From contig CAZRAM010000003.1 in assembly GCA_964598145.1 (NCBI GenBank), positions 333,025 through 397,024 on the forward strand: DNA of 64,000 nt, read 5' to 3'. A program made the position numbers and the translations under genes. Shown one piece after another: positions 19,401 through 64,000 of this stretch. A model generated the notes under the pieces. It saw only the letters and a program-made list of their open reading frames with translations. It was not told where the DNA came from and searched no databases. The number at the start of each line of letters is the position of its first letter. Position 1 is the first letter of the stretch. This DNA is from an uncultured Pseudomonadales bacterium. Its GTDB lineage: Bacteria > Pseudomonadota > Gammaproteobacteria > Pseudomonadales > JAHEIH01.

Positions 19401-19404
19401 CAAT

Positions 19405-40480: not shown

Positions 40481-40553
40481 CGTGATTGGCGGAGGTCGAC
40501 TTTGTCATCGCCAAAGATTCGCTTATGATTAGCCCTTAAAACAAGGAGTGCTT

Positions 40554-40814
40554 ATGAACGTTTTTAAAATCATGTTGACCGGTGTGATCTGCTTAAGCCT
40601 GATGGCCTGTGTTAACCAAGCCAAGTTGCGTAAAGAACGTGAATTAGCGGGCGCCGATGACGGCAAAATTTGTCGTATGGAACAGGTTGCCGGTAAGCTC
40701 ATTCGCGAACGAATTTGCTACACACCCGAACAGCTTGAAAGGATTCGCGAAGCATCACAAAATGCCAAAGATAGCATGGACCGTCGAGGCGCTATAGCTA
40801 CTCCCCAGGGTTAA
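40554..40814 (+). CDS. Small lipoprotein with conserved two-Cys motif
   Basis: AAGGAG at 40543-40548 lies 5 nt before ATG 40554. Signal peptide MNVFKIMLTGVICLSLMAC has lipobox LMAC. The mature part contains KICRMEQVAGKLIRERICYTPEQLERI. Its stop overlaps the next ATG (TAATG). Confidence 0.7.
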   Translation: MNVFKIMLTGVICLSLMACVNQAKLRKERELAGADDGKICRMEQVAGKLIRERICYTPEQLERIREASQNAKDSMDRRGAIATPQG

Positions 40815-42607: not shown

Positions 42608-44064
42608 GCATCTCGTTCCGGTAAAAATGCTGGGTAGTGCTTGGCCCGGCCGATTGACTGATTATGTAGTGCCTGTCTGACTTGCCATACACTGGCGGTT
42701 TTAACTGTGTTGTTAAGAGTATGGAAACGAAGGCATGTGTCGTCCCAAGCTAGCCCCATTGCCCTTAGTATGGGAGTTATCGTCGCTTGTGGATCCTTTA
42801 CGAGAGCTTCGTAGCGCACACTGTAAACGTCCTCAGGATAGAACTTTTGCCAATGCTCCTTTAGCGCTTGGCAATATTCGGCATATTCGACGATATGCTG
42901 TGGGTTGCAGGCGTAATCCATGGCAGGTGCTAGCCGCTGTTGGTATATAGATAGTGCGTTATCTCTGAGATCGCGTTCAGTGATAACGATTTTTGCTTTG
43001 GGAAACAGCTGCTTAATTTTATGGATATGCCACAGGTTGTCAGGCCGCTTGTCTGTCACCCAGGGTTTATCGTTGGCCACGCGCGATATCTGCTGTAAGT
43101 ATTGCGAAACCGCTTGCTGTTGTTTGCTTGGGTTGAGGCCCTGCGCCAATTTTGGGAAAAGCGTGAGTTCTCCTCCCGCAGCAATGGCGGGGTGGGCGGC
43201 GAGCATTTGCTCTAATAGGGTTGAGCCCGAGCGGAACATGCCGCAGATAAACACGAGATTGTGTGCAGTACTGATAGCTTGATTGGTAACAGGTTGGATA
43301 GCCTCTTCAAAGCGCGCACGCCACAACTTTGGATTAAAGGCTCTATTGAATCGCGCGTTAAGCGCATTAGCCGCTTGAAATGTCTGCCAGGCCTCCACGT
43401 ATAGTTTGGAGGCTTCAAGCTGGTGGCCAATTTCATAGAGCATGTTGCAGTATTGGTCTGGGTCCGATTGGGTGCGAGCTAGGCAGTCTTTTAGTGTGGT
43501 CAGCATGGAGCCGTCGCGCTGCATGGCGGCGAGGCGTGTTAGGCCGGTTGGGTACTGTTTGTCGTCATGTGGAATCGATGACAGTAGCTGCTTGGCTTGT
43601 TCTTTTTCGCCTCTATCCTCGTACAGGTTGGCGAGATTAATGATGGCGGCAGCATACCCTGGAGCTAGTTCAACGGCTCGTTTGAAGGTTGCTTCGGCCA
43701 TGTCGTCGTCTAGGATTTCTTCGCGCTGTAAAATCGCGATATTGTTATAGGCCTCCGCGGGATGTTGCAGCCCCATATCGATGGATTGCTTGTAAAGAGA
43801 AATAGCTTGTTCAACTAATCCGGCTTTAGCGGCGTAGTAGGCTTTGTTGTAACAATTGTCAGGATCTTGGACTGAGAACAGTTCACTGGCCGCCTCGGGG
43901 GTTTGACTTCCTAGGTAAAGGTTGGCCAAGGCAATACGATATTGGTCCTTTTCCGGAAAATCAGCGATAAGCAATTTTAAACGCTCGATTGCGGTCGAAA
44001 TATCCCCCTGTTGATAGGCTTGCAGGGCTCTTTCGTAGCGTGAACGCTCTGAATCGGCTGGCAT
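42604..44064 (-). CDS. TPR-repeat protein with C-terminal PAPS-dependent sulfotransferase domain
   Basis: 486 aa with no signal peptide and N-terminal TPRs. The 5-prime-PSB loop is FICGMFRSGSTLLEQ and the 3-prime-PB region is ITERDLRDNALS. Its stop overlaps the oxygenase stop (convergent, 4 nt). Confidence 0.75.
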   Translation of the reverse strand: MPADSERSRYERALQAYQQGDISTAIERLKLLIADFPEKDQYRIALANLYLGSQTPEAASELFSVQDPDNCYNKAYYAAKAGLVEQAISLYKQSIDMGLQHPAEAYNNIAILQREEILDDDMAEATFKRAVELAPGYAAAIINLANLYEDRGEKEQAKQLLSSIPHDDKQYPTGLTRLAAMQRDGSMLTTLKDCLARTQSDPDQYCNMLYEIGHQLEASKLYVEAWQTFQAANALNARFNRAFNPKLWRARFEEAIQPVTNQAISTAHNLVFICGMFRSGSTLLEQMLAAHPAIAAGGELTLFPKLAQGLNPSKQQQAVSQYLQQISRVANDKPWVTDKRPDNLWHIHKIKQLFPKAKIVITERDLRDNALSIYQQRLAPAMDYACNPQHIVEYAEYCQALKEHWQKFYPEDVYSVRYEALVKDPQATITPILRAMGLAWDDTCLRFHTLNNTVKTASVWQVRQALHNQSIGRAKHYPAFLPERDA

Positions 44065-44080
44065 TCGGTTTCCTTATATT

Positions 44081-44092
44081 TTGTCGCGACAA
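44081..44092. promoter_or_regulatory. Perfect 12-bp palindrome TTGTCGCGACAA upstream of the sulfotransferase gene
   Basis: Seen at 44081-44092, 17 nt upstream of ATG 44064. Function unknown; possibly an operator. Confidence 0.3.
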
Positions 44093-44122
44093 AAAAAAAC
44101 AGCGGGCATGGCCCGCTGTTTT
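44091..44122 (-). terminator. Rho-independent terminator of the TonB-dependent receptor gene
   Basis: CAGCGGGC-ATG-GCCCGCTG is a perfect 8-bp GC-rich stem at 44100-44118. On the minus strand it is followed by nine U (plus-strand A9 at 44091-44099). T4 on the plus-strand side could make it bidirectional. Confidence 0.85.
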
Positions 44123-44136
44123 CGCTAACAGTAACC

Positions 44137-52768: not shown

Positions 52769-54898
52769 ATGAAGCCAAATGAAGTAGATCCACTGGTACA
52801 GTGTCTACTCGCCATGGCGCGCTTTCACGACGTTACCGCTTCAGCCGAGGCGGTAACCTCGGGATTGCCCTTGGTCGACGGCAAGCTGACACCTTCTCTG
52901 TTCAGCCGCGCCGCAGCAAGACTCAACATGACCAGCAAGCTTGTCGCCAAGGACTTGGCGCAACTGCAAGCGGCACATTTTCTCCCCATTATTCTGCTTA
53001 ACGATGACGATTCGGCGTGCGTGTTAACCGGCTGGAGCGAAGACGGCCGCAGTGCAAAAGTGCTGCTGCCTGAACTGAATACCGCCGCGGTGGATATTCC
53101 TCTCGAACAACTGAAAAGCCGCTACACCGGTACCGCCATCATGACCCGCCCGGTGTTCCAGTTTGATCACTCCATGAGCAAGCGTCGCACCGAGGAAGAG
53201 GGACACTGGTTCTGGAGTGCGATTAAGGCCAACCGCGTGGTGTACCGCGATGTACTACTGGCCGCCTTCTTCGTCAATATTTTTGCCCTCGCCCTGCCAC
53301 TGTTTACCATGAACGTGTACGACAGGGTGGTGCCCAACCACGCCATGGAAACGCTGTGGATGTTGGCCTCGGGTGTGGTGCTGATTATGTTGGCCGATGT
53401 GGCGCTGCGCACCGTGCGGGCCTACTTCCTCGATCTCGCCGGGCGCCGTGTCGACATTAGTCTTTCCGCCAAAATCATGGAGCGGGTGCTGGGGCTGAAA
53501 CTGGAAGCACGGCCGAATTCGGTGGGGTCGTTTGCGTCGAATTTGCGCTCGTTTGAATCGGTGCGCGACTTCATTACCTCGGCCTCGGTCACCACTTTGA
53601 TCGATTTACCGTTCTCTATTTTGTTTATCGCGGTGATCGCCTGGATCGCGTGGCCGATTGTTATTCCGGTGCTGATCGCGGTGTTAATTGTGCTTGGCTA
53701 TGCTTTAGCTACACAGGCGCGTTTGAAAACCCTGTCGGAAACCATGTACGTGGCCGGCGCCATGCGTAACTCGACGCTGATCGAATCCTTGGTGGGTTTA
53801 GAAACCCTCAAGGCGATGGGCGCCGAAGGCAACATGCAGCGCAAGTGGGAAAAGACCACTAGCTTCCTCGCTCGCATCGGCGTGCAGCTGCGCTTGCTGT
53901 CGAACGCCAGTATTTCAGTCACCCAGTGGACCCAGCAGATGTGTTCCATCGCTGTGATCATTACCGGTGTCTACCTGATTACTCAAGGGGAGTTGAGCAT
54001 GGGTGGCTTGATCGCCACCAACATGCTGGCTAGCCGAGTGATGATGCCTTTTTCACAAGCTGCGGGATTGATCTTGCAGTATCACACTGCGCGCACCTCG
54101 CTCGATTCGCTCGACGAAGTGATGGCCAAACCCGTCGAGCGCGAAGAGGGCCGCCAGTTCCTGTCGCGCAACCACATCGACGGCAACTTGGTGTTCAACA
54201 ATGTCAGTTTTGCCTATCCCGGCAGCGATATCGGCGCACTGCGCAACATTAACTTTAGCGTTAAAGCCGGTGAAACGGTGGTGGTACTTGGCCGAGTTGG
54301 CAGTGGTAAATCGACCCTGTTGAAGTTGGCGATGGGGCTTTATTCACCCAGCGAAGGCGCCATTACCATCGACGGAATCGACATCCGCCAGCTCGACCCC
54401 GCCGACCTGCGGTTGGGGGTGGGGTACGTGCCGCAAGACGTGGTGTTGTTCCGCGGCACCTTGCGCGAAAACATCATGTTGGCGCAGCGCCACGTGAGCG
54501 ACGCTGAGATCATGCGCGCCGCTGAAATGGCTGGCTTGGATGAGTTTATTAAGCGCCACCCCAAAGGCTTGGATATGGATGTGGGCGAGCGCGGCGAATC
54601 GCTATCGGGCGGCCAGCGCAAGGGTGTGGCTCTGGCACGCGCCATGGTGCACAGCCCCTCGGTGATGTTTATGGATGAACCCACCGGCTCGATGGATCAC
54701 TCCACCGAAGCATCGGTGGTGAAACAGTTGAAGAAATACTCGGTGGGCAAAACCCTGTTTTTGATTACCCACCGCACGTCGCTGTTGGATTTGGCCGATC
54801 GCATTGTGGTGATCGATAACGGACAAGTGGTCGCGAACGGTCCCCGCGACAACGTGGTGGAAGCGCTGCGTCAGGGCAAAATTGGGAAGGCGAGCTAA
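52769..54898 (+). CDS. Type I secretion system permease/ATPase with N-terminal C39-like (non-catalytic) domain
   Basis: 709 aa with an N-terminal roughly 130-aa peptidase-C39-like fold and a six-helix TMD. Walker A GRVGSGKST, signature LSGGQRK, Walker B VMFMDEPT. Confidence 0.9.
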   Translation: MKPNEVDPLVQCLLAMARFHDVTASAEAVTSGLPLVDGKLTPSLFSRAAARLNMTSKLVAKDLAQLQAAHFLPIILLNDDDSACVLTGWSEDGRSAKVLLPELNTAAVDIPLEQLKSRYTGTAIMTRPVFQFDHSMSKRRTEEEGHWFWSAIKANRVVYRDVLLAAFFVNIFALALPLFTMNVYDRVVPNHAMETLWMLASGVVLIMLADVALRTVRAYFLDLAGRRVDISLSAKIMERVLGLKLEARPNSVGSFASNLRSFESVRDFITSASVTTLIDLPFSILFIAVIAWIAWPIVIPVLIAVLIVLGYALATQARLKTLSETMYVAGAMRNSTLIESLVGLETLKAMGAEGNMQRKWEKTTSFLARIGVQLRLLSNASISVTQWTQQMCSIAVIITGVYLITQGELSMGGLIATNMLASRVMMPFSQAAGLILQYHTARTSLDSLDEVMAKPVEREEGRQFLSRNHIDGNLVFNNVSFAYPGSDIGALRNINFSVKAGETVVVLGRVGSGKSTLLKLAMGLYSPSEGAITIDGIDIRQLDPADLRLGVGYVPQDVVLFRGTLRENIMLAQRHVSDAEIMRAAEMAGLDEFIKRHPKGLDMDVGERGESLSGGQRKGVALARAMVHSPSVMFMDEPTGSMDHSTEASVVKQLKKYSVGKTLFLITHRTSLLDLADRIVVIDNGQVVANGPRDNVVEALRQGKIGKAS

Positions 54899-56352
54899 TG
54901 TCAGATCAGCAAGAACCAGCATTGCCGCCAGAATTGCAGCAACCCCCCGAGCCCAAAAAAGACTTTTTGGACCGCGCCAGCGACAACTTTCTTGTGCGCC
55001 TGTTCGACCGCTTCATCTTTGCCGTGTTTGGCAAATGGCTGAAGGATGTCTCCGCTGAAGAGCAACACTGGAACGCCGACGTTAACCGCGCATTTGTCGA
55101 GCAGCAACCGCTGCGCGTGCACAGCCTGCTGTACACCATCGGTGTGGTGGTGCTGTTTTTGGTGCTGTGGGCCTCGTGGGCCGAGATCGACGAAGTCACT
55201 CGCGGCGAAGCGCGTGTGATTCCCTCGCAGCAGGTGCAAATTATTCAGTCGCAAGACGGCGGGGTGGTGAAGGAAATTCTTATCCGCGAGGGCGATATTG
55301 TCGAGCAGGGGCAGTTGTTAATTAGCCTGGATCAGACACGATCAGAGTCGATGTTGCGCGAAAGCCGGGCCGAACTGCTGGGATTGCGCGCCAAAGTAGA
55401 GCGTTTAAGCTCGGTGGTAAACGATCAAGCTTTCGAGCCCAGCGCGGAGCTGCAAGAGCTGATTCCCACTATTTTGGAGCAGGAAAAACGCCTCTACGGC
55501 GATAACCTGCAGCGCTTGAACGCGATCCGCAATATCGCCGACGAGCAGTTGATTCAGCGCCAGCAAGAATTGTCCGAGTTAGAGGCACGCCGCACCCAAT
55601 TGAGCAAGGCCTTGGAGTTGAGCACCCGCGAGTTGAATGTGACCCGTCCCTTGGTGAGTTCTGGTGCGGTGTCAGAGGTGGAGCTACTGCGACTGGAGCG
55701 CGACACTACCAATATCAGCGGTGAGCTTGAGCAGACCAAGGCTCAGATCGAGAAGTCTAAATCGTCAATTACCGAGGCGCGCAATAGTAAGCAAGAAGTT
55801 GAACTGGCTTTCTTCAACGAGATGCGCGAAGAGCTGTCGGCCACTATCGCCCGCGTTAACGCATTGGAAGAAAGCAGCACCGGTCTGACCGACCGCGTGA
55901 ACCAAACGCTAGTGAAATCCCCGGTTAAGGGCACCATCAAGCGCCTGTATTTCAACACCGTTGGGGGTGTCGTGTTGCCTGGTCGCGAGATCGTCGAGAT
56001 CGTACCGCTCGACGACACGCTGTTGCTAGAAGCCAAGATTCAGCCGCGCGATATCGCCTTCCTGCGCCCCGGCCAAGAGGCCATGGTGAAATTTACCGCC
56101 TACGATTTTGTGGTTTATGGCGGCCTTAAGGGCAGCGTTGAGCGCATTGGTGCCGATACGATCATAGACGAAGAAGGAAATGCCTACTATAACGTAAGGG
56201 TGAGAACGACCGAGTCGTTCAACAATGACGATATGCCGATTATTCCCGGCATGGTGGCCGAGGTCGATATCCTCACCGGCAAGAAAACGATCATGGCCTA
56301 TTTGATGAAACCCGTATTACGCGCCAAGCAGTACGCCTTAACGGAACGATAG
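54898..56352 (+). CDS. HlyD-family type I secretion periplasmic adaptor
   Basis: 484 aa; its start overlaps the ABC gene stop (TAATG). One TM helix, a long coiled coil, a lipoyl/beta-barrel segment (VKSPVKGTIKRLYFNTVGGVV), and a C-terminal MAYLMKPVL. Confidence 0.9.
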   Translation: MSDQQEPALPPELQQPPEPKKDFLDRASDNFLVRLFDRFIFAVFGKWLKDVSAEEQHWNADVNRAFVEQQPLRVHSLLYTIGVVVLFLVLWASWAEIDEVTRGEARVIPSQQVQIIQSQDGGVVKEILIREGDIVEQGQLLISLDQTRSESMLRESRAELLGLRAKVERLSSVVNDQAFEPSAELQELIPTILEQEKRLYGDNLQRLNAIRNIADEQLIQRQQELSELEARRTQLSKALELSTRELNVTRPLVSSGAVSEVELLRLERDTTNISGELEQTKAQIEKSKSSITEARNSKQEVELAFFNEMREELSATIARVNALEESSTGLTDRVNQTLVKSPVKGTIKRLYFNTVGGVVLPGREIVEIVPLDDTLLLEAKIQPRDIAFLRPGQEAMVKFTAYDFVVYGGLKGSVERIGADTIIDEEGNAYYNVRVRTTESFNNDDMPIIPGMVAEVDILTGKKTIMAYLMKPVLRAKQYALTER

Positions 56353-56976
56353 ATGAAGCACATTTTTGTGGGTTACGGGGGTCGCCTGCGCCCTCGTTGG
56401 CAGGAAGCCTTTTCCGACGCCCAGGGATTGTCATCGCTGTTTGAATTGACCCCCGCTCGCGAGGGCGAAAAGCGTATGCTGTGGTTCGATATTTCCAACA
56501 CCTCGGCGCAAGAGCGTATGGCCTTGGTGAATCAATGCATTGCCTCCGGCTCGCCGGTGATCGTGATGTCTTCCCTGCCCAACGACGACGAAGCCTACGA
56601 GATGCTGCGCAACGGCGCTTACGGTTACTGCCACAACGTGGCGGCGCCGAGCCAGTTGGTGGAAATTGCCCAGGTAGTCGAGCACGGTGGCCTTTGGGTG
56701 GGCGCGGCGGTAATGCGTCGCTTGGTGACTATCGCCAACCGCGTGTCAGATCACAAGCCCAAAAACGGCACCATCCGCGGTTTGGATGAACTGACCCACA
56801 AAGAACTCGATGTGGCAAAGCAAGTTGCCGTTGGCGCCACCAACAAAGAAATTGCCGAGCAATTGCATATGTCAGAACGCACCGTGAAAGCCCATCTTTC
56901 CTCGGTGTTCGACAAAATGGCGGTGCGCGATCGCGTGCAACTCGCCCTCACCATGAACAACGTCAAACTGCACTAA
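56353..56976 (+). CDS. LuxR-family regulator with atypical (pseudo-)receiver domain
   Basis: 207 aa; its ATG directly follows the adaptor stop (TAGATG). The C-terminal GerE HTH is LTHKELDVAKQVAVGATNKEIAEQLHMSERTVKAHLSSVFDKMAVRDRVQLA. The N-terminal REC-like fold keeps D46 (LWFDIS). It lacks the beta1 acidic pair (IFVGYGGR) and has H in place of the beta5 Lys (GAYGYCHN). Confidence 0.8.
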   Translation: MKHIFVGYGGRLRPRWQEAFSDAQGLSSLFELTPAREGEKRMLWFDISNTSAQERMALVNQCIASGSPVIVMSSLPNDDEAYEMLRNGAYGYCHNVAAPSQLVEIAQVVEHGGLWVGAAVMRRLVTIANRVSDHKPKNGTIRGLDELTHKELDVAKQVAVGATNKEIAEQLHMSERTVKAHLSSVFDKMAVRDRVQLALTMNNVKLH

Positions 56977-57022
56977 ATAACCAAAATTCGCCTAAAAAGC
57001 GCCATTTTTTCATTTTGGTTAT
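56977..57022. promoter_or_regulatory. Perfect 11-bp inverted repeat ATAACCAAAAT-N24-ATTTTGGTTAT between the regulator and adhesin genes
   Basis: Arms lie at 56977-56987 and 57012-57022, starting 1 nt after the regulator stop codon. It could be a stem-loop terminator (AT-rich stem with a T-run inside the loop) or a protein operator. Confidence 0.45.
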
Positions 57023-57140
57023 ATAGATGCTATTTCTAAATGCTTAACTGTTCTTAAACACGCCCAATAGTCCAATGTCGTGGACATGACCTTTTCCTAC
57101 TATTACTGCTAAGAAAATCTTTAGACGAAGGAATCACGTC

Positions 57141-60100
57141 ATGGCCAGTCAAGCAATCGCAACCGTCGCAGCAGTATTAGGAACCGCCTTCGCCCGTAAT
57201 GAAAACGGCGAAATGCGTGAAATTAAAGCCGGAGATACCATCTACGAGGGTGAGGTGTTAGTAACCCCCGATGGTAGCTCGGTAGAGTTGAGCATGATGG
57301 ACGGTTCTCCCCTCGTGGTTAGTGGCGTTAACGAGACCCTGCTGACTCCCGACGTGGTGGCAGAACTGGCGGCTAACGCGCAAGAAGCGGCAGCCAGTCA
57401 AGACACCTTGGATGAGTTGATCTCGGGCATTCGTGGCCTTGACGGAGGCAGCGAAGAAGAGCAAATCCTGGCCGCCTTGGAAGGCGACGGCAACCTCGAT
57501 GACCTGTTAGAAGAAACTGCAGCCGGCTTGGGCGGCGGTGGCCAAGGCGAAGGCCACTCGTTCGTAATGCTGGATCGCGTGAACGAGCAAGTGGCATTCA
57601 GTGGCGCGGGTTCGACCGATGGCGCGATTGTTGAAGGCGATGCCAGCCAAGAGCAAGACGTTAACCTGCCTCCACAAGTGGCCAATGTGGATCTGGGTGA
57701 AATCGACGAAGACGGCGCTATTACCTTTACTGCACAAGACCTGCTGTTCGGTTCGTTTGACCCCGAGGGTCAGCCCTTGACCGTGAGCAACGTGAGCCTG
57801 ACCAGTGGCAACGGCACCCTAACCGATAACGGCGACGGTACCTTTACCTTTACCCCTGATGCAGACTGGAATGGCGACGTATCGTTTGGTTTCGACGTCA
57901 CCGACGACCTGATCACCGTGCCTAACACCGCAACCCTGACGGTTGCGCCTGTAAACGATGCCCCCGAAGTGGGGCCCATCACCATCGTTGATACCGAAGT
58001 AACCGCCCCCGACGGCGCGGTGATTGTTGGTATTCCCGAAGATGGTTCGTTGATCATTACCGAAGACCAATTAATTGGTGTGACCGATGATATCGACAAC
58101 ACCGATTCAGAGTTAAGCGTGGTAGATATCAGCGTTGATAATGGCACCATTGTTAACAACGGTGACGGCACCTTTACCTTTACTCCCGATCCCGATTTCA
58201 ACGGCGATGTCGTGGTGAGCTTTGAAGTTAGCGATGGTGAATTGTCGGATACCGGTTCAGCCACCTTCACCGTGGTCCCCGTGGTAGACGTGGTCGATGA
58301 CGGCGTACAGATCGAGCAAGATACCCCCGTGATTGTGAACGTGATGGACAACGATACCTTCGAAGGCGAAGGTACCGTGACAGCGGTGGGTACACCCAGC
58401 AATGGTTCGGCGTCGGTAAATGCCGATAATACCGTGACCTACGTGCCCAACCCTGGCTTCATTGGCGAAGATACCTTTACCTACACCGTAACCACCGAAA
58501 CGGGCGATACCGAAACCGCCACCGTAACCGTGACCATCGTGTCTGCGGACAATCCTGCCAACCTTGGCACCGACAGCGGCGAAGTGACCGAGGGCGGCCC
58601 GCTGACCGATAGCGGCACCATTAGCATCGATGATCCCGATGCCGGCGAAAATTTCTTCCAAGTACAAGATGGTACCCAAGGTGATTTCGGTAGCTTTGAG
58701 ATCGACGAAAACGGCAACTGGACCTACACCTTGGACGACACCCTCGACGCGGTACAGTCACTGGGCGAAGGCGATCAACTGACCGAAATCTTCCCCGTGC
58801 AGAGCGTCGATGGCACCGAAACCACCGTGGTGGTGACCATTAACGGCACCAACGACGTGCCCGTGTTTACTCCCGGTAGCAACACCGTTGGCGACGACGC
58901 TGGCACCGTGAAAGAAGAAGAGCCCCTGCAGGCCACTGGTACTGTATCGATCGAAGATACCGATACCAACGAAGACATGTTCCAGCCCCAAGACAACACC
59001 GAGGGCGAATACGGCGACTTCACCATCGATGAAGACGGCAACTGGGTTTACGATCTGAACAACGACGACCCACGTATTCAATCCCTGCCCGAAGGTGAAG
59101 AACTGACCGAAACCTTCCCCGTGACCAGTGTGGATGGCACCGAAACCGAAGTCGTGATCACCATTGTGGGTACCAACGACGTGCCTACCATTACCGGTGA
59201 TACTGGTAGTGTGACCGAAGATACCGTGCTGAGCATCAACGGTACCGTGACCATCGTTGATACCGACGCCGGTGAATCTGAATTTGCACCACAAACAGGC
59301 ACTACCGGTAACCACGGCACATTCACCCTGGCTGCAAATGGCGCGTGGGTATACACCTTGGATAACGATTCAGCCGCCGTCCAAGCGCTGGGCGAAGGCG
59401 ATACCCTGACCGATGAATTCACTGTGATCAGTGCTGATGGCACTGAAAGCGATACCGTGACCATTACTATTAATGGCACCAACGATACACCTAACTTTAC
59501 CGACGGTTCACAAACCCTGGGTGACGATGCAGGTAGCGTTTTTGAAGATGAACCCCTCAGCGCATCAGGTACCGTGAGTATTAGCGATACCGACGAAGGT
59601 GAAGAAGCGTTTGACCCCCAAACTAACACCTCGGGTGACTACGGCGATTTCACCATCGATGCCGATGGTAACTGGACCTACAACCTCGACAATGCCAACG
59701 ACACAGTGCAAGGACTTGGCGAAGGCGAAATTCTGGAAGAAACCTTCCCAGTTATTACCGTAGACGGTACCGAAACCGAAGTGGTGATTACCATTACTGG
59801 CCGCAACGATGGCCCCGTGGTGTCTGTTGAAGATTTGGCCGCTGTAGAAGATGGCGCAGCAATTACCGGCAATGCCGGCTTTACTGATCTGGATGTTAAC
59901 GATACCCACACCTACACCGTAAGCGACATGCCCGCGGGCCAAGGTTCAGTAAGCATTGATGCCGCAACAGGCGAGTACACCTACAACCCTGGTAATGATT
60001 TCCAATACTTGGCCGAAGGTCAAACGACCGATGTTTCATTTGATGTGACAGTGACGGATAGCGAGGGTGCGAGTGATACAAAAACTGTGACTGTGACAGT

Positions 60101-63100
60101 GACGGGAGTTAACGACTCTCCTGAGGTTGAAGGAACGATTTCAGATCAAAATCTGGCTGAAGACTTCACGTCCTACACTATTGATCTGAATGCAGCATTT
60201 AAAGACAACGATAACACAGATGGTGAGCTGACCTTTGGAGTTAGTGGTAACTCAAACGTTGGCGTGAGTATCGTTGGTGGTATTGCCACGATTAGCCAAG
60301 CGACAGCTGACTGGAATGGCGTTGAGAATCTTACCTTTACAGCGACTGACCCCGATGGTTTAAGTGCAAGCCAGGATGTGACCTTTATTGTAAGTCCTGT
60401 GGTGGATATTGCTGATGACACAGGTAATGTTGTTGAGGATACCGCGACGATTATCAATGTGTTGGGTAACGATGCTTTTGAGAACAGCAATGCGGCTGTC
60501 ACTTCAGTAGGCAATGCCACTGGCGGTACCGTGGCATTAGAAAATGGTGTGGTGACTTTCACACCAACACCCAACTACAACGGTGCGGCTGGTTTTGATT
60601 ACACCGTGACTTCTGGCGGTGTAACCGAAAATGCAACTGTTGCACTTACCGTCACCCCAGTGAATGATCCAGCATCCTTGGCCATGAATGCTCCCGAATC
60701 ATTTACAGAAGGTTCTGCGTCAGCGGGTGACTTGGTAACTACTGTGGCATCGGTATCAGATCCTGATGGCGATGGTACTTTCACGTACGCCATTAGTGAT
60801 AATACTAACTATACGATTGCGGCGGATGGCACCGTAAGGTTAACGGCAGATGGTGCGGCGCTGGCGAATGCGGATGCTGGTCCAGAGCTACCTGCCTTTA
60901 CTGTGACCGCGACATCGGGTGGAGACTTCTCATCTGTAGCGACATCGGCCAGTATTGATCCTTCAGTGACCCCAGTGAATGATCCAGCATCCTTGACCAT
61001 GAATGCTCCCGAATCATTTACAGAAGGTTCTGCGTCAGCGGGTGACTTGGTAACTACTGTGGCATCGGTATCAGATCCTGATGGCGATGGTACTTTCACG
61101 TACGCCATTAGTGATAATACTAACTATACGATTGCGGCGGATGGCACCGTAAGGTTAACGGCAGATGGTGCGGCGCTGGCGAATGCGGATGCTGGTCCAG
61201 AGCTACCTGCCTTTACTGTGACCGCGACATCGGGTGGAGACTTCTCATCTGTAGCGACATCGGCCAGTATTGATCCTTCAGTGACCCCAGTGAATGATGC
61301 TCCAACATTAATTGTTACCCTCGAAAATGACTTTATCGAAGATGACATTAGTAATGCTATTGGTAGTATTGTTGCTACCTTTACAGTCTCAGACCCTGAA
61401 AACGATACAGTAACAGTAGTACTTAGTGATACCACGAATTACGCACTTTCAGGCAATAACGTTGTATTAACTAGTGCCGGTTTGGTACTAGTTAATAGTG
61501 GCCAGGATTTGCCAGCATTTACTTTGACGCCAAATGATGGACAAGTAGATGGATCTTCAGTAAGCGTTGATCCATCAGTTGATTCTCATCCTGTTGATGA
61601 ATCAAGTTCTCAATCAATATCAATTACTAATGTTTCAGGCTCTACAATTCAAGATGATCTGTTTTATACAGGTCTTGATGGGTTTGGTGGGGTTATGTTG
61701 ATTGAAAACTTTGGTGAAAATGTTGAATTAACCTCATCAACTGGCGTACCACTTGTTTACTCTGAAAACTTTGATGAAGAGTCTGGTATTTATACATATT
61801 CCGCTACTGCTAATGGTGATCCTGTATTCACAATAACAGTAGATACCAATAATACGGACATTAATTATACCTTTGAAATGTTTGACTCAATAAAGCTTCA
61901 GACATCATATACTTTCGATGCAGACTTCCTGTCACAAGGTGGCAAAGACGAGTACTACTTCTTAACAAATGACGGAAGTCTCTCGAAAGGTTCAGTTGAT
62001 ACTGATGCCCCTGAAAATACTTCAGTTACTATTTCAGCCATAGATGCAGATGGAAATCAAATTGATGTGAATGCAAATGCTACTGTTGTGGGTGCAGGTT
62101 CTGGCTTAACAGTGGGACCGGATGAATGGATTGTACTTACTTATGATCCAGAGAATTTTCAGTCAGCAGTTGAAGTTGTAATAGCAGAAGATGCTAACGG
62201 AACAATCCCTGATAATGACTTTTGGTATCATCTAAAAGTCACCGGTTTTGACTCTAATGGCACGGAAATCGTTTATGAAGCCTTGGTTGATCAGGGCGAT
62301 GCAAGTACAGGGCCTCAATTAGATTCTGATGGTACTTTATTACTCGTAGCGTCATCATTGACGGGTGATCAGTTGGATGCTTCTGGGAATCCTATAGCTA
62401 CAGACTTATCTTTTGTAAATATTTCCAAAGTTGAGTTGTCTGGCTTAGATAATGGTTTAACAGGAAGTGGAAAAAATGATTCTCTAGTAATCACATCTAT
62501 CTCAAACAATGTCACTGAATCAATTGATGACTTGGATTTGAACTTTAGCTTTACAGGTACGGATGATTCTGGTGACTCAGTTTCAAATCAAATAAGCATC
62601 AATGTCACTGATGGAATAACTCCATCAAGTTATGATGGCACTGGTGATTTGGTTCAGGGTGGTTCTACAGATGATGTTCTTACACCTGTTAATTTGACAA
62701 ATTTAGATGGTGGTAATGCAGTATTTGGTTATGAAGGAAATGATACAATCGATGGCGGATTAAATGATGATGTTTTGACTGGAGGATTGGGAGAAGATGT
62801 CTTTGCCTGGTCATTAGCTGACCCAAATTCAAATGATGTTATTACAGATTTTGAAATTACTGATACAGATAGTTCAGGCGATATTTCTGCAGCAGAGATC
62901 CTTGATACTAATACAACAGTTGACGCCATCGACCTAAGTGACCTGTTGGTTGACGAAGAATCTAACCCAATCACGGATTATTTGAGTGTTACTTATGATG
63001 GCACCAATACCATTATCAATGTAACCCCTGATGGTTCGGGTGGAACAACTTCGCAGATTATTACAGTTGAAGGTGTTGATTTAACCGGAGGTCTTGATGA

Positions 63101-63167
63101 GGCTACTCAACAATCAACCATTATCCAAAATCTGATAGATGGTGGTAAGCTTGTTCTCGACCAGTAA
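57141..63167 (+). CDS. Giant LapA-like type I-secreted repeat adhesin (retention module, cadherin/Ig-like and VCBS repeats, RTX, C-terminal T1SS target domain)
   Basis: - 2008 aa, with SD GAAGGA upstream.
- The N-terminus MASQAIATVAAVLGTAFARNENGEMREIKAGDTIYEGEVLVTPDGSSVELSMMDGSPLVV resembles the LapA-type retention module.
- The motif TAAG..GGGGQGEGHSFVMLDRV follows.
- The body has repeated PVNDAP-bounded roughly 100-aa domains and five VCBS units.
- RTX nonamers are GYEGNDTIDGGLNDDVLTGGLGEDVFA.
- The C-terminus DVFAWSLAD..DVITDF..DAIDLSDLL resembles the VC_A0849-subclass secretion domain. Confidence 0.9.
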   Translation: MASQAIATVAAVLGTAFARNENGEMREIKAGDTIYEGEVLVTPDGSSVELSMMDGSPLVVSGVNETLLTPDVVAELAANAQEAAASQDTLDELISGIRGLDGGSEEEQILAALEGDGNLDDLLEETAAGLGGGGQGEGHSFVMLDRVNEQVAFSGAGSTDGAIVEGDASQEQDVNLPPQVANVDLGEIDEDGAITFTAQDLLFGSFDPEGQPLTVSNVSLTSGNGTLTDNGDGTFTFTPDADWNGDVSFGFDVTDDLITVPNTATLTVAPVNDAPEVGPITIVDTEVTAPDGAVIVGIPEDGSLIITEDQLIGVTDDIDNTDSELSVVDISVDNGTIVNNGDGTFTFTPDPDFNGDVVVSFEVSDGELSDTGSATFTVVPVVDVVDDGVQIEQDTPVIVNVMDNDTFEGEGTVTAVGTPSNGSASVNADNTVTYVPNPGFIGEDTFTYTVTTETGDTETATVTVTIVSADNPANLGTDSGEVTEGGPLTDSGTISIDDPDAGENFFQVQDGTQGDFGSFEIDENGNWTYTLDDTLDAVQSLGEGDQLTEIFPVQSVDGTETTVVVTINGTNDVPVFTPGSNTVGDDAGTVKEEEPLQATGTVSIEDTDTNEDMFQPQDNTEGEYGDFTIDEDGNWVYDLNNDDPRIQSLPEGEELTETFPVTSVDGTETEVVITIVGTNDVPTITGDTGSVTEDTVLSINGTVTIVDTDAGESEFAPQTGTTGNHGTFTLAANGAWVYTLDNDSAAVQALGEGDTLTDEFTVISADGTESDTVTITINGTNDTPNFTDGSQTLGDDAGSVFEDEPLSASGTVSISDTDEGEEAFDPQTNTSGDYGDFTIDADGNWTYNLDNANDTVQGLGEGEILEETFPVITVDGTETEVVITITGRNDGPVVSVEDLAAVEDGAAITGNAGFTDLDVNDTHTYTVSDMPAGQGSVSIDAATGEYTYNPGNDFQYLAEGQTTDVSFDVTVTDSEGASDTKTVTVTVTGVNDSPEVEGTISDQNLAEDFTSYTIDLNAAFKDNDNTDGELTFGVSGNSNVGVSIVGGIATISQATADWNGVENLTFTATDPDGLSASQDVTFIVSPVVDIADDTGNVVEDTATIINVLGNDAFENSNAAVTSVGNATGGTVALENGVVTFTPTPNYNGAAGFDYTVTSGGVTENATVALTVTPVNDPASLAMNAPESFTEGSASAGDLVTTVASVSDPDGDGTFTYAISDNTNYTIAADGTVRLTADGAALANADAGPELPAFTVTATSGGDFSSVATSASIDPSVTPVNDPASLTMNAPESFTEGSASAGDLVTTVASVSDPDGDGTFTYAISDNTNYTIAADGTVRLTADGAALANADAGPELPAFTVTATSGGDFSSVATSASIDPSVTPVNDAPTLIVTLENDFIEDDISNAIGSIVATFTVSDPENDTVTVVLSDTTNYALSGNNVVLTSAGLVLVNSGQDLPAFTLTPNDGQVDGSSVSVDPSVDSHPVDESSSQSISITNVSGSTIQDDLFYTGLDGFGGVMLIENFGENVELTSSTGVPLVYSENFDEESGIYTYSATANGDPVFTITVDTNNTDINYTFEMFDSIKLQTSYTFDADFLSQGGKDEYYFLTNDGSLSKGSVDTDAPENTSVTISAIDADGNQIDVNANATVVGAGSGLTVGPDEWIVLTYDPENFQSAVEVVIAEDANGTIPDNDFWYHLKVTGFDSNGTEIVYEALVDQGDASTGPQLDSDGTLLLVASSLTGDQLDASGNPIATDLSFVNISKVELSGLDNGLTGSGKNDSLVITSISNNVTESIDDLDLNFSFTGTDDSGDSVSNQISINVTDGITPSSYDGTGDLVQGGSTDDVLTPVNLTNLDGGNAVFGYEGNDTIDGGLNDDVLTGGLGEDVFAWSLADPNSNDVITDFEITDTDSSGDISAAEILDTNTTVDAIDLSDLLVDEESNPITDYLSVTYDGTNTIINVTPDGSGGTTSQIITVEGVDLTGGLDEATQQSTIIQNLIDGGKLVLDQ
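57516..57527 (+). other. Candidate LapG-type (BTLCP protease) dialanine processing site T-A-A-G
   Basis: Codons ACT GCA GCC GGC encode T126-A127-A128-G129, followed by the Gly-rich GLGGGGQGEGHSF. The context is as in characterised LapA-like substrates (established consensus [T/A/P]-A-A-[G/V]). Confidence 0.6.
58542..60122 (+). repeat. Five tandem VCBS-type repeat units (about 105 aa each), diverged
   Basis: The recurring pattern is G(D/S)F(T/E)IDxxGNW(T/V)Y(T/D/N)LDNxxxxVQxLGEGxxLTExFPVxSVDGTExxVVITIxGTND(V/T/G)P. The fifth unit is more divergent and ends in VTGVNDSP. Confidence 0.8.
60654..61298 (+). repeat. Near-identical 315-bp tandem duplication (2 copies) inside the adhesin gene
   Basis: By direct comparison, 60657-60971 and 60972-61286 are identical except G60681 versus A60996 (Ala to Thr). 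Each copy encodes one 105-aa PVNDPASL...IDPSVT domain. The ORF track shows the same duplication on the opposite strand (MAYVKVPSPSGSDTDATVVTK... twice). Confidence 0.95.
62727..62807 (+). repeat. RTX calcium-binding nonapeptide repeats (3 units)
   Basis: GYEGNDTID GGLNDDVLT GGLGEDVFA fits GGxGxDxUx. Confidence 0.8.
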
Positions 63168-63179
63168 GTAAGGATTTAT

Positions 63180-63521
63180 ATGCCCTACATCAAACGCAAC
63201 ACCGCCGGCCAAATCTCGGCGGTCTCTGAAGAAGCCCTCCCAGGCTTCTTGGAGGCTACCGATAAAGACGCCGACGACATCGCTGCCTTTGGGGTGGAAT
63301 TGATCGGTTCGGATGAAGCCGAACTGATCAAGACTGACCTTGAGTTCGTGCGGGTATTGGAAGACGTGATTGAGTTGTTGATGGCGAAGAACGTGATTCA
63401 ATTCACGGAATTGCCGGATGCCTCGCAGGCGAAAATGCTGAAACGTAAGAAGTTGCGTGATGGCATTACCAGTAAGCTGGATTTGTTGGATGAGGAAAGT
63501 TTGTTCTTTGGGCGTGATTAA
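63180..63521 (+). CDS. Small acidic hypothetical protein
   Basis: 113 aa, starting 12 nt after the adhesin stop. MPYIKRNTAGQISAVSEEALPGFLEATDKDADD...DLEFVRVLEDVIELLMAKNVIQFTELPDASQAKMLKRKKLR. GC-rich like the core genome and followed by a terminator. Confidence 0.6.
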   Translation: MPYIKRNTAGQISAVSEEALPGFLEATDKDADDIAAFGVELIGSDEAELIKTDLEFVRVLEDVIELLMAKNVIQFTELPDASQAKMLKRKKLRDGITSKLDLLDEESLFFGRD

Positions 63522-63540
63522 TTGATCCACTAAGATGATA

Positions 63541-63577
63541 AAGGCGATGAGCTTAAAGGTTTATCGCCTTTTTTATT
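63541..63577 (+). terminator. Rho-independent terminator after the small acidic ORF
   Basis: AAGGCGAT-N14-ATCGCCTT stem at 63541-63570, followed by TTTTATT. Confidence 0.7.
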
Positions 63578-63836
63578 GCCCGTAATGGGTTTTAGCCCTG
63601 ATGACGACAACAACACAGCGGTCGTCTTCGATTCGATACACAATACGATCTTGAAAGCTCAAGCGTACCGAGTAGTACCCCTTTAATTTTCCGATAAGTG
63701 GTTTGCCCTCATAGGGGGCGACAGCTATTTTGTGTCGCAGTATTTCTTTAAGTTTGTTTTTGAGTTTATCGGATAGCTTAGTTATATCTTTTTGCGCTTG
63801 CTTGGTAAGTTCTATCTTGTATCGGTAATCGCTCAC
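63573..63836 (-). CDS. Type II toxin-antitoxin system toxin, RelE/StbE/YoeB superfamily
   Basis: 87 aa, GTG start. The sequence KIELTKQAQKDITKL...YEGKPLIGKLKGYYSVRLSFQDRIVYRIEDDRCVVVVIRAKTHY is typical of RelE-fold mRNA interferases. Its start overlaps the antitoxin stop (GTGA). Confidence 0.8.
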   Translation of the reverse strand: MSDYRYKIELTKQAQKDITKLSDKLKNKLKEILRHKIAVAPYEGKPLIGKLKGYYSVRLSFQDRIVYRIEDDRCVVVVIRAKTHYGQ

Positions 63837-64000
63837 AGCGGCTCACCAAAAACATCTTCGAAACTATCTGTGTCACCTTTGTCGGCTTCTTTTGTCGATT
63901 GCTCAAAAGTCTTATTGAAATCAGGTTGCGACAGAATGTGTAGTGTTTCTATCAGACTGTCGTAATCTTCTGCCGACATGATCATCGCTTTGCCAGATTT
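63833..64000 (-). CDS. Phd/YefM-family antitoxin, C-terminal part (5-prime end outside window)
   Basis: The minus-strand frame reads KSGKAMIMSAEDYDSLIETLHILSQPDFNKTFEQSTKEADKGDTDSFEDVFGEPL, stop TGA at 63835-63833. The SAEDYDSLxETLxIL block is typical of Phd/YefM. Confidence 0.75.
   Translation of the reverse strand, partial: KSGKAMIMSAEDYDSLIETLHILSQPDFNKTFEQSTKEADKGDTDSFEDVFGEPL

What the first reader, a model, noticed from the sequence alone, without database searches (positions are those of the whole stretch)
60000..63167. Compositional mosaic: the 3-prime third of the adhesin gene is strongly AT-shifted and returns to core GC right after the stop codon
- **Hand-counted GC of 60-nt samples along the gene:** 57781-57840, 37/60; 58501-58560, 37/60; 59401-59460, 29/60; 60241-60300, 28/60; 61441-61500, 24/60; 61621-61680, 20/60; 62281-62340, 27/60; 62641-62700, 24/60.
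- **After the stop codon:** The next gene jumps back to 36/60 (63181-63240).
- **Codon usage:** Codon choice changes in parallel. ACC/GGC/GAC-rich usage at the 5-prime end becomes ACT/ACA/GGT/GGA/GAT-rich at the 3-prime end.
- **What the AT-rich part encodes:** one diverged copy of the duplicated domain, about 430 aa of unrecognised sequence, the RTX repeats and the C-terminal secretion signal.
- **Interpretation:** A single ORF with such a gradient suggests a chimeric gene, with a foreign C-terminal 'business end plus secretion signal' cassette recombined onto a native N-terminal stalk. That would be a route to swapping adhesin specificity while keeping retention and regulatory parts.
Basis: partly seen in the sequence, partly recalled or inferred. 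Interest (0 to 1): 0.6.

Follow-up and report, generated by a model that had tools for sequence, protein, structure and literature searches.

The report
Adhesin gene with swapped foreign tip
A giant surface-adhesin gene of an uncultured marine bacterium keeps a native, strain-invariant anchor end but carries an AT-rich outer part that a near-identical sister strain has replaced with unrelated DNA; this is a clear example of a kind of adhesin-tip swapping already described in other bacteria.

Summary
All nine hand-counted GC values are exact. GC3 along the 2008-aa LapA-type RTX adhesin ORF (57141-63167) falls in three steps: 0.60 (57141-59987), 0.41 (59988-61292) and 0.24 (61293-63164). The window background is 0.645 ± 0.076 and never drops below 0.40.

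The chimera interpretation is supported directly. A sister-strain contig (L086) is 99.7% identical upstream of the gene, 100% identical over adhesin residues 1-317, and 99.3% identical from the stop codon onward. Everything between is unrelated sequence encoding a different 2025-aa adhesin. That second allele, seen in four samples, shows the same GC3 staircase (0.61/0.41/0.27).

Independent assemblies reproduce the window allele at 100% identity apart from a gap at 60712-61268, inside a tandem duplication, so chimeric assembly is unlikely.

Each block has different nearest relatives:
- Block A: a Pseudomonadales MAG (75%).
- Block B: Vibrio tandem-95 proteins and a Marinobacterium-labelled MAG (60-66%).
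- Block C: Psychromonas, Vibrio and an Acinetobacter plasmid (62-72%) for its first domain; Cycloclasticus-type C-termini (37-41%) for the rest.

Relatives take their hosts' composition, so low GC3 is not intrinsic to these domains. No donor was identified. Swaps of the ligand-binding region in RTX adhesins are already described, so this is a new member of a known kind.

The parts
52769..54898 (+). T1SS ABC transporter (LapB-like). It was used as the anchor for finding orthologous and sister-strain loci.
   Evidence: Pfam ABC_membrane and ABC_tran. The exact protein is found on four independent contigs.
54898..56352 (+). T1SS membrane-fusion protein (HlyD/LapC-like).
   Evidence: Pfam HlyD_3 and HlyD_D23.
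56353..56976 (+). LuxR/GerE-type regulator, syntenic between the transporter genes and the adhesin in all orthologous loci.
   Evidence: Pfam GerE. Synteny in L001-L010.
57141..63167 (+). LapA-type RTX adhesin ORF of 2008 aa. This is the mosaic gene.
   Evidence: ORF listing. NCBIfam retention_LapA, 5 VCBS stretches, 6 tandem-95 stretches and T1SS_VCA0849. Pfam Cadherin_4, Cadherin_5 and Big_9.
57141..58091 (+). Strain-invariant 5' anchor (residues 1-317). It is 100% identical in protein to the alternative allele.
57156..57596 (+). Retention module (residues 6-152), with a TAAG motif at residues 126-129 that is a candidate LapG cleavage site.
   Evidence: NF033682 scores 84.8 bits against a cutoff of 50. 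TAAG position.
57927..58526 (+). Left-hand boundary zone. Nucleotide identity to the sister-strain allele decays from 0.93 to 0.58-0.66, and the next bin is at chance level (about 0.4).
   Evidence: 100-nt identity bins.
57141..59987 (+). Block A, with native-like composition (GC3 0.60). It holds the retention module, tandem-95 domains and five VCBS domains.
   Evidence: Change-point analysis. The best relative is P0132, from a Pseudomonadales MAG, at 75%.
59988..61292 (+). Block B, intermediate composition (GC3 0.41).
   Evidence: Change-point analysis. Nearest relatives are Vibrio tandem-95 proteins at about 60% and L002 at 61-66%.
60633..61262 (+). Two tandem copies of a 315-nt unit. The copies are identical except for 10 differences in the first 49 nt. 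Short-read assemblies break here.
   Evidence: Contig ends at 60711 and 61269.
61293..63164 (+). Block C, strongly AT-shifted (GC 0.385, GC3 0.24).
   Evidence: Change-point analysis. The cut lies within 6 nt of the end of the duplicated unit, at the VND|AP linker at 61298/61299.
61293..61586 (+). C1 domain, the diverged third copy of the ~105-aa domain. It is 42% identical to its in-gene neighbours but 62-78% identical to domains in Vibrio, Psychromonas, an Acinetobacter plasmid and the L086 allele.
61587..62645 (+). Rare orphan module of about 350 aa, all-beta, possibly a carbohydrate-binding-like ligand-binding region.
   Evidence: Only 5 relatives among 1.84 billion cluster representatives. 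No Pfam family. AlphaFold2 model with pLDDT 57.6. Weak Foldseek hits to CBM and lectin folds.
62706..62801 (+). RTX nonapeptide repeats (GGxGxD-type).
   Evidence: PF00353 scores 17.9 bits, below its cutoff of 23. The motifs are visible in the translation.
62835..63152 (+). Type I secretion C-terminal target domain.
   Evidence: TIGR03661 scores 41.4 bits against a cutoff of 17.6.
63160..63179 (+). Sharp right-hand boundary. Identity to all four contigs carrying the other allele resumes at the stop codon and the 12-nt spacer.
63180..63521 (+). Conserved 113-aa ORF of native composition (GC3 0.65) with no known family. It forms the right-hand flank shared by both alleles.

Best explanation
**What it is.** The gene encodes a LapA-type, type-I-secreted RTX adhesin, and its DNA is a recombinational mosaic.

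**The conserved part.** The first ~950 nt have native composition and do not vary between the two strains compared. They encode the retention module, which has to fit the resident LapG/LapD/outer-membrane machinery, and the first extender domains.

**The exchanged part.** Everything distal is swapped as allelic cassettes: further extenders, the ligand-binding region, the RTX repeats and the secretion signal. The exchange is by homologous recombination anchored on the conserved 5' part of the gene and on the conserved ORF just past the stop codon. This resembles capsule or O-antigen switching.

**The AT-rich blocks.** Blocks B (GC3 0.41) and C (GC3 0.24) are DNA that came from lower-GC lineages and has not yet drifted to the host's composition. 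They come from a pool of adhesin modules shared among marine Gammaproteobacteria.

**The junctions.** The B/C junction falls at an inter-domain 'VND|AP' linker. After import, a 315-nt domain unit was duplicated in place.

**The consequence.** The surface-binding tip changes while secretion, retention and c-di-GMP control are kept.

**Shown versus inferred.** Shown here: the three compositional blocks, the allele replacement between near-identical strains, the boundaries, and the different nearest relatives of each block. Inferred: the direction and donors of transfer, the recombination mechanism, and the change in binding specificity.
For: **Composition.**
- Three GC3 blocks with highly significant cuts.
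- They lie far outside the window background.
- Codon usage is uncorrelated (block B) or anticorrelated (block C) with host genes.

**Allele replacement.**
- L086 is 99.7% identical over 53227-57140 and 99.3% over 63160-64000, but has no nucleotide match over about 58500-63159.
- Its adhesin is 2025 aa, identical over residues 1-317 and unrelated after about 470.
- L089, L090 and L091, from three further samples, carry the L086 allele at 100% identity and match the window only from 63160 onward.

**Not an assembly artefact.**
- L082, L084 and L085 are 100% identical to the window up to 60711.
- L087 and L088 are 100% identical from 61269 and from 62459 respectively to 64000.

**Different nearest relatives.**
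- Block A: a Pseudomonadales MAG at 75%.
- Block B: Vibrio at about 60% and L002 at 61-66%.
- C1 domain: Psychromonas and Vibrio at 62-66%, an Acinetobacter mobilizable plasmid at 72%.
- C-terminal 526 aa: Cycloclasticus-type adhesin C-termini at 37-40%, carried on different stalks.

**Composition follows the host, not the domain type.**
- The Vibrio genome carrying C1-type domains has housekeeping GC3 of 0.25-0.27 (its own adhesin is at 0.35).
- Block-B-type repeats sit at GC3 0.48 in L002 and 0.79 in L095.
- Whole adhesins at the orthologous loci L008 and L009 run at about 0.9.

**Locus context.** LapD- and LapG-like genes lie downstream on L087.
Against: - No donor was found. The closest relatives of blocks B and C are only 37-72% identical, and a JGI metagenome scan for block C returned only RTX-level hits.
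- Database sampling is biased towards Vibrio, so 'Vibrio-like' may only mean 'best-sampled relative'.
- The stretch 60712-61268 is not covered by the independent short-read contigs. It holds the tandem duplication that ends 31 nt before the B/C junction. That junction is supported only by L087 starting 30 nt upstream of it, so copy number and linkage rest on the window assembly.
- The left boundary is a gradual decay, not a sharp breakpoint. It could reflect old allelic divergence maintained by selection rather than a recent import.
- The identical three-tier GC3 pattern in two unrelated alleles is not explained by simple single-donor transfer.
Confidence: 0.8

Rival explanations
1. **Assembly chimera.** The 64-kb contig wrongly joins adhesin genes of two co-occurring organisms through their repetitive domains.
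For: - The gene is repetitive.
- Short-read contigs break at 60711 and restart at 61269, around a near-exact 315-nt tandem duplication that ends 31 nt before the B/C junction.
Against: - The A/B junction is reproduced at 100% identity in three independent sample assemblies (L082, L084, L085).
- Block C is joined to the native downstream flank at 100% identity in L087 and L088.
- The upstream-side and downstream-side contigs co-occur in the same samples (SRR15635857 and SRR15635858).
- L087 begins with 30 nt of the block-B repeat end.
- The alternative allele shows the same staircase on a single 22-kb contig with both native flanks.
Confidence: 0.03
2. **In-place codon selection or amino-acid effect.** The 3' AT shift arises in place, for example from selection for slow translation or weak mRNA structure near the C-terminal secretion signal of T1SS substrates, or from amino-acid content.
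For: - Both alleles at this locus show a decline in GC3 from 5' to 3'.
- Several orthologous adhesins (L010, L004, L001) have lower GC3 than their neighbouring genes.
Against: - GC3 changes far more than GC1 or GC2.
- The two alleles are unrelated in sequence, so they cannot have diverged in place.
- The adhesin in L009, and the 2605-aa stretch of the L008 adhesin that was available, have GC3 of about 0.9 along their length. L010 has no change point.
- Block-B-type repeats occur at GC3 0.79 in L095.
Confidence: 0.05
3. **Old balanced polymorphism.** The alleles are ancient, maintained in the species by diversifying or frequency-dependent selection, and moved between strains only by intraspecific recombination. 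Their AT-richness dates from a very old import or from a separate allele-specific equilibrium, not from recent foreign DNA.
For: - The left boundary is a graded decay from 93% to about 60% over roughly 600 nt, as seen next to long-lived polymorphisms.
- Each allele recurs unchanged (100%) across several samples.
- No close donor was found.
- Both alleles share the same three tiers, and their lowest tiers start with the same C1-type domain.
Against: - GC3 of 0.24 in a genome at 0.65 should erode over long residence.
- Each block's relatives lie in different orders at moderate identity.
- This reading is not exclusive of a foreign origin. It differs mainly in timing.
Confidence: 0.12

Closest known systems
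Swaps of the ligand-binding region between RTX adhesin alleles at one locus, such as Aeromonas Ah2a/Ah2d, Legionella Lp1a-c and Vibrio vulnificus Vv1e (bioRxiv 10.1101/2025.09.30.679566, read)
   Same: [quoted passage not shown]
- The locus is the same in both alleles.
- The swaps are attributed to uptake of DNA and homologous recombination.
   Different: - Here the host is an uncultured marine Pseudomonadales-type bacterium.
- The swapped part runs through the secretion signal to the stop codon.
- It also includes most of the extender region.
- It carries a stepwise compositional signature (GC3 0.60/0.41/0.24) that recurs in a second, unrelated allele. The term 'GC content' does not occur in that paper's main text.
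Pseudomonas fluorescens LapA and the LapBCE/LapD/LapG system (established knowledge; NCBIfam NF033682)
   Same: - N-terminal retention module with a TAAG motif.
- Extender repeats.
- C-terminal RTX repeats and T1SS signal.
- Adjacent ABC and membrane-fusion genes.
- LapD-like (LapD_MoxY_N-GGDEF-EAL) and LapG-like (Peptidase_C93) genes nearby.
   Different: - The extender and tip domains differ.
- The gene order includes a LuxR-type regulator, a 113-aa ORF and a toxin-antitoxin pair.
- LapG cleavage and c-di-GMP control were not tested here.
MARTX toxin effector-domain shuffling in Vibrio vulnificus rtxA1 (my own knowledge of Kwak et al. 2011 and Roig et al. 2011; those papers were not read here)
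   Same: A giant T1SS RTX protein whose internal or distal functional modules are exchanged by recombination between strains, giving mosaic alleles.
   Different: - MARTX toxins keep both conserved repeat ends and swap central effector domains.
- This protein has no cysteine protease domain or MARTX repeat families among its Pfam hits.
- This protein is an adhesin and swaps its whole distal end.
C-terminal cassette displacement in polymorphic toxin systems (Rhs/CDI; PMC3482391, seen as a search hit, abstract only)
   Same: A conserved N-terminal delivery part with a variable C-terminal functional part generated by recombination.
   Different: - There are no orphan or silent cassette copies in the window.
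- The ORF after the stop codon is the same for both alleles, so it is not an allele-specific immunity gene.
- No toxin domain was detected.

Membership tests
LapA-type retention-module RTX adhesin (T1SS) | N-terminal retention module | tested here: met
   NCBIfam NF033682 retention_LapA scores 84.8 bits against a cutoff of 50, over residues 6-152.
LapA-type retention-module RTX adhesin (T1SS) | Di-alanine LapG cleavage motif (TAAG) in the retention module, and actual cleavage by LapG | tested here: inconclusive
   A single TAAG motif is present at residues 126-129. Cleavage cannot be tested with these tools.
LapA-type retention-module RTX adhesin (T1SS) | Long array of Ig-like or cadherin-like extender domains | tested here: met
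   Pfam matched stretches: 9 Cadherin_4, 7 Big_9 and 5 Cadherin_5. NCBIfam: 5 VCBS and 6 tandem-95 stretches.
LapA-type retention-module RTX adhesin (T1SS) | C-terminal RTX nonapeptide repeats | tested here: inconclusive
   PF00353 scores 17.9 bits, below its cutoff of 23. GGxGxD-type motifs are visible at residues ~1856-1890 and align with the RTX repeats of P0252-P0257.
LapA-type retention-module RTX adhesin (T1SS) | Type I secretion C-terminal target domain | tested here: met
   TIGR03661 scores 41.4 bits against a cutoff of 17.6, over residues 1899-2004.
LapA-type retention-module RTX adhesin (T1SS) | Adjacent T1SS ABC transporter and membrane-fusion protein | tested here: met
   ORFs 52769-54898 (ABC) and 54898-56352 (HlyD family).
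LapA-type retention-module RTX adhesin (T1SS) | LapD-like c-di-GMP receptor and LapG-like protease in the locus | tested here: met
   On L087, which is 100% identical to window 61269-64000, the genes just beyond the window end carry LapD_MoxY_N+GGDEF+EAL, Peptidase_C93 and OEP-OmpA. They lie outside the window itself.
RTX adhesin allele pair with a swapped ligand-binding region | Same locus, near-identical N-terminal part, and a collapse of identity across the distal region | tested here: met
   Window versus L086: flanks 99.3-99.7% identical, residues 1-317 100% identical, sequence unrelated after about residue 470, and identity resuming at the stop codon.
RTX adhesin allele pair with a swapped ligand-binding region | The swapped part contains a ligand-binding domain with altered specificity | not testable with these tools
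   The orphan module has no family. The model is low-confidence (pLDDT 57.6). There are only weak hints of a CBM or lectin fold.
MARTX toxin | Cysteine protease domain and conserved MARTX repeat regions flanking effector domains | tested here: not met
   No such Pfam families appear among the hits to the 2008-aa protein.
Polymorphic toxin system with orphan C-terminal cassettes | Silent cassette copies nearby and an allele-specific immunity gene after the stop codon | tested here: not met
   No blastn or tblastn copy of blocks B or C exists elsewhere in the window. The downstream ORF is the same (98-100%) with both alleles.

The most novel reading that the evidence does not exclude
The same three-step GC3 staircase (about 0.60 / 0.41 / 0.25) appears in two unrelated alleles, and the lowest tier of each starts with the same C1-type domain. 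This may reflect a right-anchored, nested 'tip-first' replacement process. The distal end, fixed at the stop codon and the 113-aa ORF, would be exchanged most often. The left crossover would land at conserved inter-domain linkers of shared adapter domains. The imported DNA would come from an inter-order pool of AT-rich adhesin cassettes, partly plasmid-borne, circulating among marine Gammaproteobacteria. If so, composition along the gene would record the order of imports.
Probability: 0.2. Interest if true: 0.6.

Novelty: new member of a known kind. Interest (0 to 1): 0.4.

Why it matters
Adhesin tips decide which surfaces, hosts or particles a bacterium colonises. This locus shows that two near-identical strains of an uncultured marine bacterium differ in almost nothing here except the outer ~1500-1700 residues of one adhesin. 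It also shows that the replaced DNA carries a strong foreign compositional signature.

Three practical points follow:
- **A marker for swapped tips.** A GC3 step inside a giant ORF, bounded by the stop codon, could be used to find swapped adhesin tips in metagenomes.
- **An example outside pathogens.** It shows that exchange of the ligand-binding region in RTX adhesins is not confined to pathogens.
- **An untested hint about secretion.** Two C-terminal secretion signals that are 31% identical lie next to LapB/LapC genes that are 99.7% identical in the stretch compared. If both adhesins are secreted, the transporter tolerates divergent signals.

It does not reveal a new kind of system.

Tried and rejected
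**Searches that led nowhere.**
- An exact-sequence look-up of the 2008-aa protein found nothing on record. Neighbouring genes were used as anchors instead.
- A genome-collection scan with the ABC transporter found no conspecific genome. The best matches were 70-71% (Azotimanducaceae and Marinobacterium-labelled MAGs, then Halieaceae), so the host species is not among the representative genomes.
- A JGI metagenome scan with the C-terminal 526 aa, meant to catch a donor context, returned only two RTX-level hits at 41-46% over about 60-75 residues.
- A tblastn of block C against plasmids returned only C1-domain and RTX-level hits.
- Pfam on the orphan module returned nothing meaningful.
- The AlphaFold2 model built from six sequences has mean pLDDT 57.6. 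Foldseek matches have TM-scores of at most 0.43, so I do not claim a fold.
- A literature search for 'RTX adhesin', 'recombination' and 'GC content' found no paper on compositional mosaics in these genes.

**Explanations considered and rejected.**
- Assembly chimera.
- Amino-acid or translation-selection effect.
- Polymorphic-toxin-style cassette system.
- MARTX membership.

The reasons are given under the rival explanations and the membership tests.

Full report
**1. The observation**

The ORF 57141-63167 (+) encodes 2008 aa. In sliding windows, GC falls from about 0.55-0.60 to 0.35-0.40, with the sharpest step near 61200-61350.

The shift lies mainly in third codon positions. GC3 goes from 0.57-0.71 at the 5' end to 0.18-0.30 at the 3' end, while GC1 and GC2 move much less. 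For comparison, 281 windows of 300 nt from 44 other ORFs in the window have GC3 of mean 0.645, SD 0.076 and minimum 0.40.

A likelihood change-point analysis on third positions gives three blocks:

| Block | Codons | Coordinates | GC3 |
|---|---|---|---|
| A | 1-949 | 57141-59987 | 0.60 |
| B | 950-1384 | 59988-61292 | 0.41 |
| C | 1385-2008 | 61293-63164 | 0.244 |

The two cuts have 2*deltaLL of 170 and 32.5, against a maximum of 14.9 in 200 permutations.

Codon usage follows the same pattern. ACC falls from 0.81 to 0.17, GGC from 0.59 to 0.21 and AAC from 0.76 to 0.17. The RSCU correlation with host genes is 0.74, -0.03 and -0.28 for blocks A, B and C. The only 1-kb bins below 47% GC in the whole window cover the 3' end of this gene and the short flank after it.

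The next ORF, 63180-63521, has GC3 of 0.65. After it comes an AT-rich YoeB/YefM toxin-antitoxin pair.

**2. What the gene is**

- Pfam finds 9 Cadherin_4, 7 Big_9 and 5 Cadherin_5 stretches, plus a sub-threshold RTX match.
- NCBIfam finds a LapA-type retention module (84.8 bits, cutoff 50), five VCBS and six tandem-95 stretches, and the T1SS C-terminal target domain (41.4 bits, cutoff 17.6).
- A TAAG motif lies at residues 126-129.
- Upstream are a T1SS ABC transporter, a HlyD-family protein and a LuxR-type regulator.
- On contig L087, which is 100% identical to window 61269-64000, the genes beyond the window end are a LapD-like receptor (LapD_MoxY_N-GGDEF-EAL), a LapG-like Peptidase_C93 and an OEP-OmpA outer-membrane protein.

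This is therefore a Lap-type adhesin locus.

**3. Orthologous loci**

A genome-collection scan with the transporter found ten orthologous loci (59-71% identity) in Halieaceae, 'Azotimanducaceae' and other MAGs. Eight of them show the same ABC-MFP-LuxR-adhesin order; the other two contigs end before the adhesin.

Their adhesins share with the window protein only the N-terminal ~160 residues (45-54%) and generic repeat similarity. The one exception is L002, which is 66% identical to residues 966-1160.

Adhesins in L008 (a 2605-aa stretch cut by the end of the fetched locus) and L009 run at GC3 of about 0.9 along their length. L010 has no change point. Several others (L010, L004, L001) are AT-shifted as a whole relative to their neighbours. 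A 3' AT shift is therefore not a general property of these genes.

**4. The decisive comparison: strain-level alleles**

*The window allele in other assemblies.* Exact-protein look-ups of the transporter and of the 113-aa downstream ORF returned independent assemblies.
- L082, L084 and L085, from three samples, are 100% identical to the window up to 60711.
- L087 is 100% identical from 61269 to 64000, and L088 from 62459 to 64000.
- The breaks fall in a 315-nt tandem duplication whose copies are identical except in their first 49 nt.

*The second allele.* L086 is a 22-kb contig from another study.
- It is 99.7% identical to the window over 53227-57140.
- It is 98.4% identical over 57141-58090.
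- Identity then decays from 0.93 to about 0.6 over 57927-58526, and is at chance after that.
- Identity returns to 99.3% exactly at the stop codon and spacer (63160 onward).

Its adhesin is 2025 aa. It is identical to the window protein over residues 1-317 and unrelated after about residue 470, and the C-terminal 120 residues are 31% identical. L089, L090 and L091, from three more samples, carry this second allele at 100% identity and match the window only from 63160.

In the decay zone the window allele stays close to the outgroup P0132 (76-90%), while L086 does not (55-67%). This fits L086's own first GC3 change point at codon 332.

**5. The second allele has the same staircase**

L086 has GC3 of 0.61 (codons 1-332), 0.41 (333-837) and 0.27 (838-2025). 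The lowest tier of both alleles begins with the same ~100-aa C1-type domain, which is 78% identical in protein and 73% in DNA over 223 nt.

**6. Nearest relatives of each block**

- **Block A.** The best relative is P0132, from a Pseudomonadales MAG: 75% overall and 76-94% over residues 318-767. Identity then falls away as that protein continues with different repeats.
- **Block B.** The top hits are Vibrio 'tandem-95 repeat' proteins at about 60% over half the block, and L002 at 61-66%. Vibrio is heavily over-sampled.
- **Block C, first ~98 residues (C1).** This domain is 42% identical to the neighbouring in-gene copies. It is 62-66% identical to Psychromonas and Vibrio domains, and 72% identical to a domain repeated at least 40 times in a 22-kb gene on the mobilizable Acinetobacter piscicola plasmid pYH12207-1.
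- **Block C, remaining 526 residues.** These have only five relatives among 1.84 billion cluster representatives. The four significant ones, together with a 2116-aa Cycloclasticus cluster member of one of them, align end to end at 37-40% from a conserved P-x-D-E-S motif through the RTX repeats to the secretion signal. Where their N-terminal parts are known, they sit on different stalk repeats.

The module-RTX-signal unit is therefore a coherent cassette that occurs on several stalk types.

**7. Composition follows the host, not the domain**

- The Vibrio genome that carries C1-type domains has housekeeping GC3 of 0.25-0.27, matching block C. Its own adhesin is at 0.35.
- Block-B-type repeats sit at GC3 0.48 in L002 and 0.79 in L095.

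This argues against an intrinsic compositional or selective cause. It supports the view that blocks B and C retain the composition of lower-GC sources.

**8. The orphan module**

No Pfam family matches it. The AlphaFold2 model is all-beta but of modest confidence: mean pLDDT 57.6, with the core of residues ~45-260 at 70-80. Foldseek hits are weak. They are enriched in beta-sandwich carbohydrate-binding and lectin modules, and include an Aeromonas RTX-adhesin CBM/split domain (9q5u, E = 1e-3). This is a hint, not a result.

**9. Mechanism**

*Shown.*
- The mosaic structure, with three compositional blocks.
- Allele replacement between near-identical strains.
- A graded left boundary within the extender array.
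- A sharp right boundary in the 12-nt spacer after the stop codon.
- A B/C junction within 6 nt of the VND|AP inter-domain linker (61298/61299).

*Inferred.*
- Homologous recombination anchored in the conserved 5' part of the gene and in the downstream ORF replaces the distal part as a cassette.
- The retention module is kept because it must fit the resident LapG/LapD/outer-membrane proteins.
- The secretion signal travels with the tip and is accepted by the resident transporter.
- The AT-rich blocks come from lower-GC lineages.
- The 315-nt duplication arose after import.

*Not resolved.* I could not tell whether the staircase records serial nested imports, two donor pools, or a donor gene that was already a mosaic.

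**10. Comparison with what is known**

A 2026 preprint on RTX adhesins in long-read genomes describes the same kind of event. [quoted passage not shown] Smaller swaps occur in Legionella. A Vibrio vulnificus allele is attributed to homologous recombination with V. cholerae DNA. A 2023 PNAS paper suggests horizontal acquisition of the FrhA peptide-binding domain.

The present case is therefore a new member of a known kind. The added details are:
- the strong stepwise GC3 signature;
- its recurrence in a second, unrelated allele;
- the boundary at the stop codon;
- the setting in an uncultured marine bacterium.

**11. Verdict**

The finding is of moderate interest.

Noticed in passing
63180-63521 (+): A 113-aa ORF starts 12 nt after the adhesin stop codon. 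It has native composition (GC3 0.65) and no Pfam or NCBIfam family. It is 98-100% conserved next to both adhesin alleles and marks the right-hand recombination boundary. It has no counterpart in the orthologous loci L001-L010 (tblastn). Its function is unknown.
   Followed up: partly
63573-64000 (-): An AT-rich (about 42-45% GC) YoeB/ParE-type toxin (87 aa) and the start of a Phd/YefM antitoxin lie between the adhesin locus and the lapD-like and lapG-like genes. The pair is present with both alleles.
   Followed up: partly
40428-46824; L083: A strain that is 98.9% identical (L083) lacks window 40428-46824. In its place it has a different TonB-dependent receptor (993 aa versus 938 aa). The window ORFs in this stretch have below-average GC3 (0.49-0.54). 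This looks like a second strain-variable island.
   Followed up: no
60633-61262: Two tandem 315-nt units are identical except in their first 49 nt. Three short-read contigs stop at 60711 and one restarts at 61269, so the copy number in the window assembly is unverified.
   Followed up: partly
L009:13571-19117: The last 51 codons of this orthologous adhesin ORF have GC3 of 0.20, against 0.91 for the rest. An overlapping ORF (18853-21429) continues in another frame. This is probably a frameshift or an assembly error rather than a swap.
   Followed up: no
L096 (NZ_CP048660.1 121912-144240): The mobilizable Acinetobacter piscicola plasmid pYH12207-1 carries a 22-kb VCBS-domain gene with at least 40 matches to the C1-type domain (72% identity). 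This makes it a possible vehicle for spreading adhesin modules between orders.
   Followed up: partly
L010:14544-20759; L004:14454-18005: In Halioglobus MAGs the orthologous adhesin genes are AT-shifted as a whole (GC3 0.45-0.49) relative to their neighbours (0.6-0.7), with no internal step. Adhesin bodies at this locus may be exchanged often across the family.
   Followed up: partly
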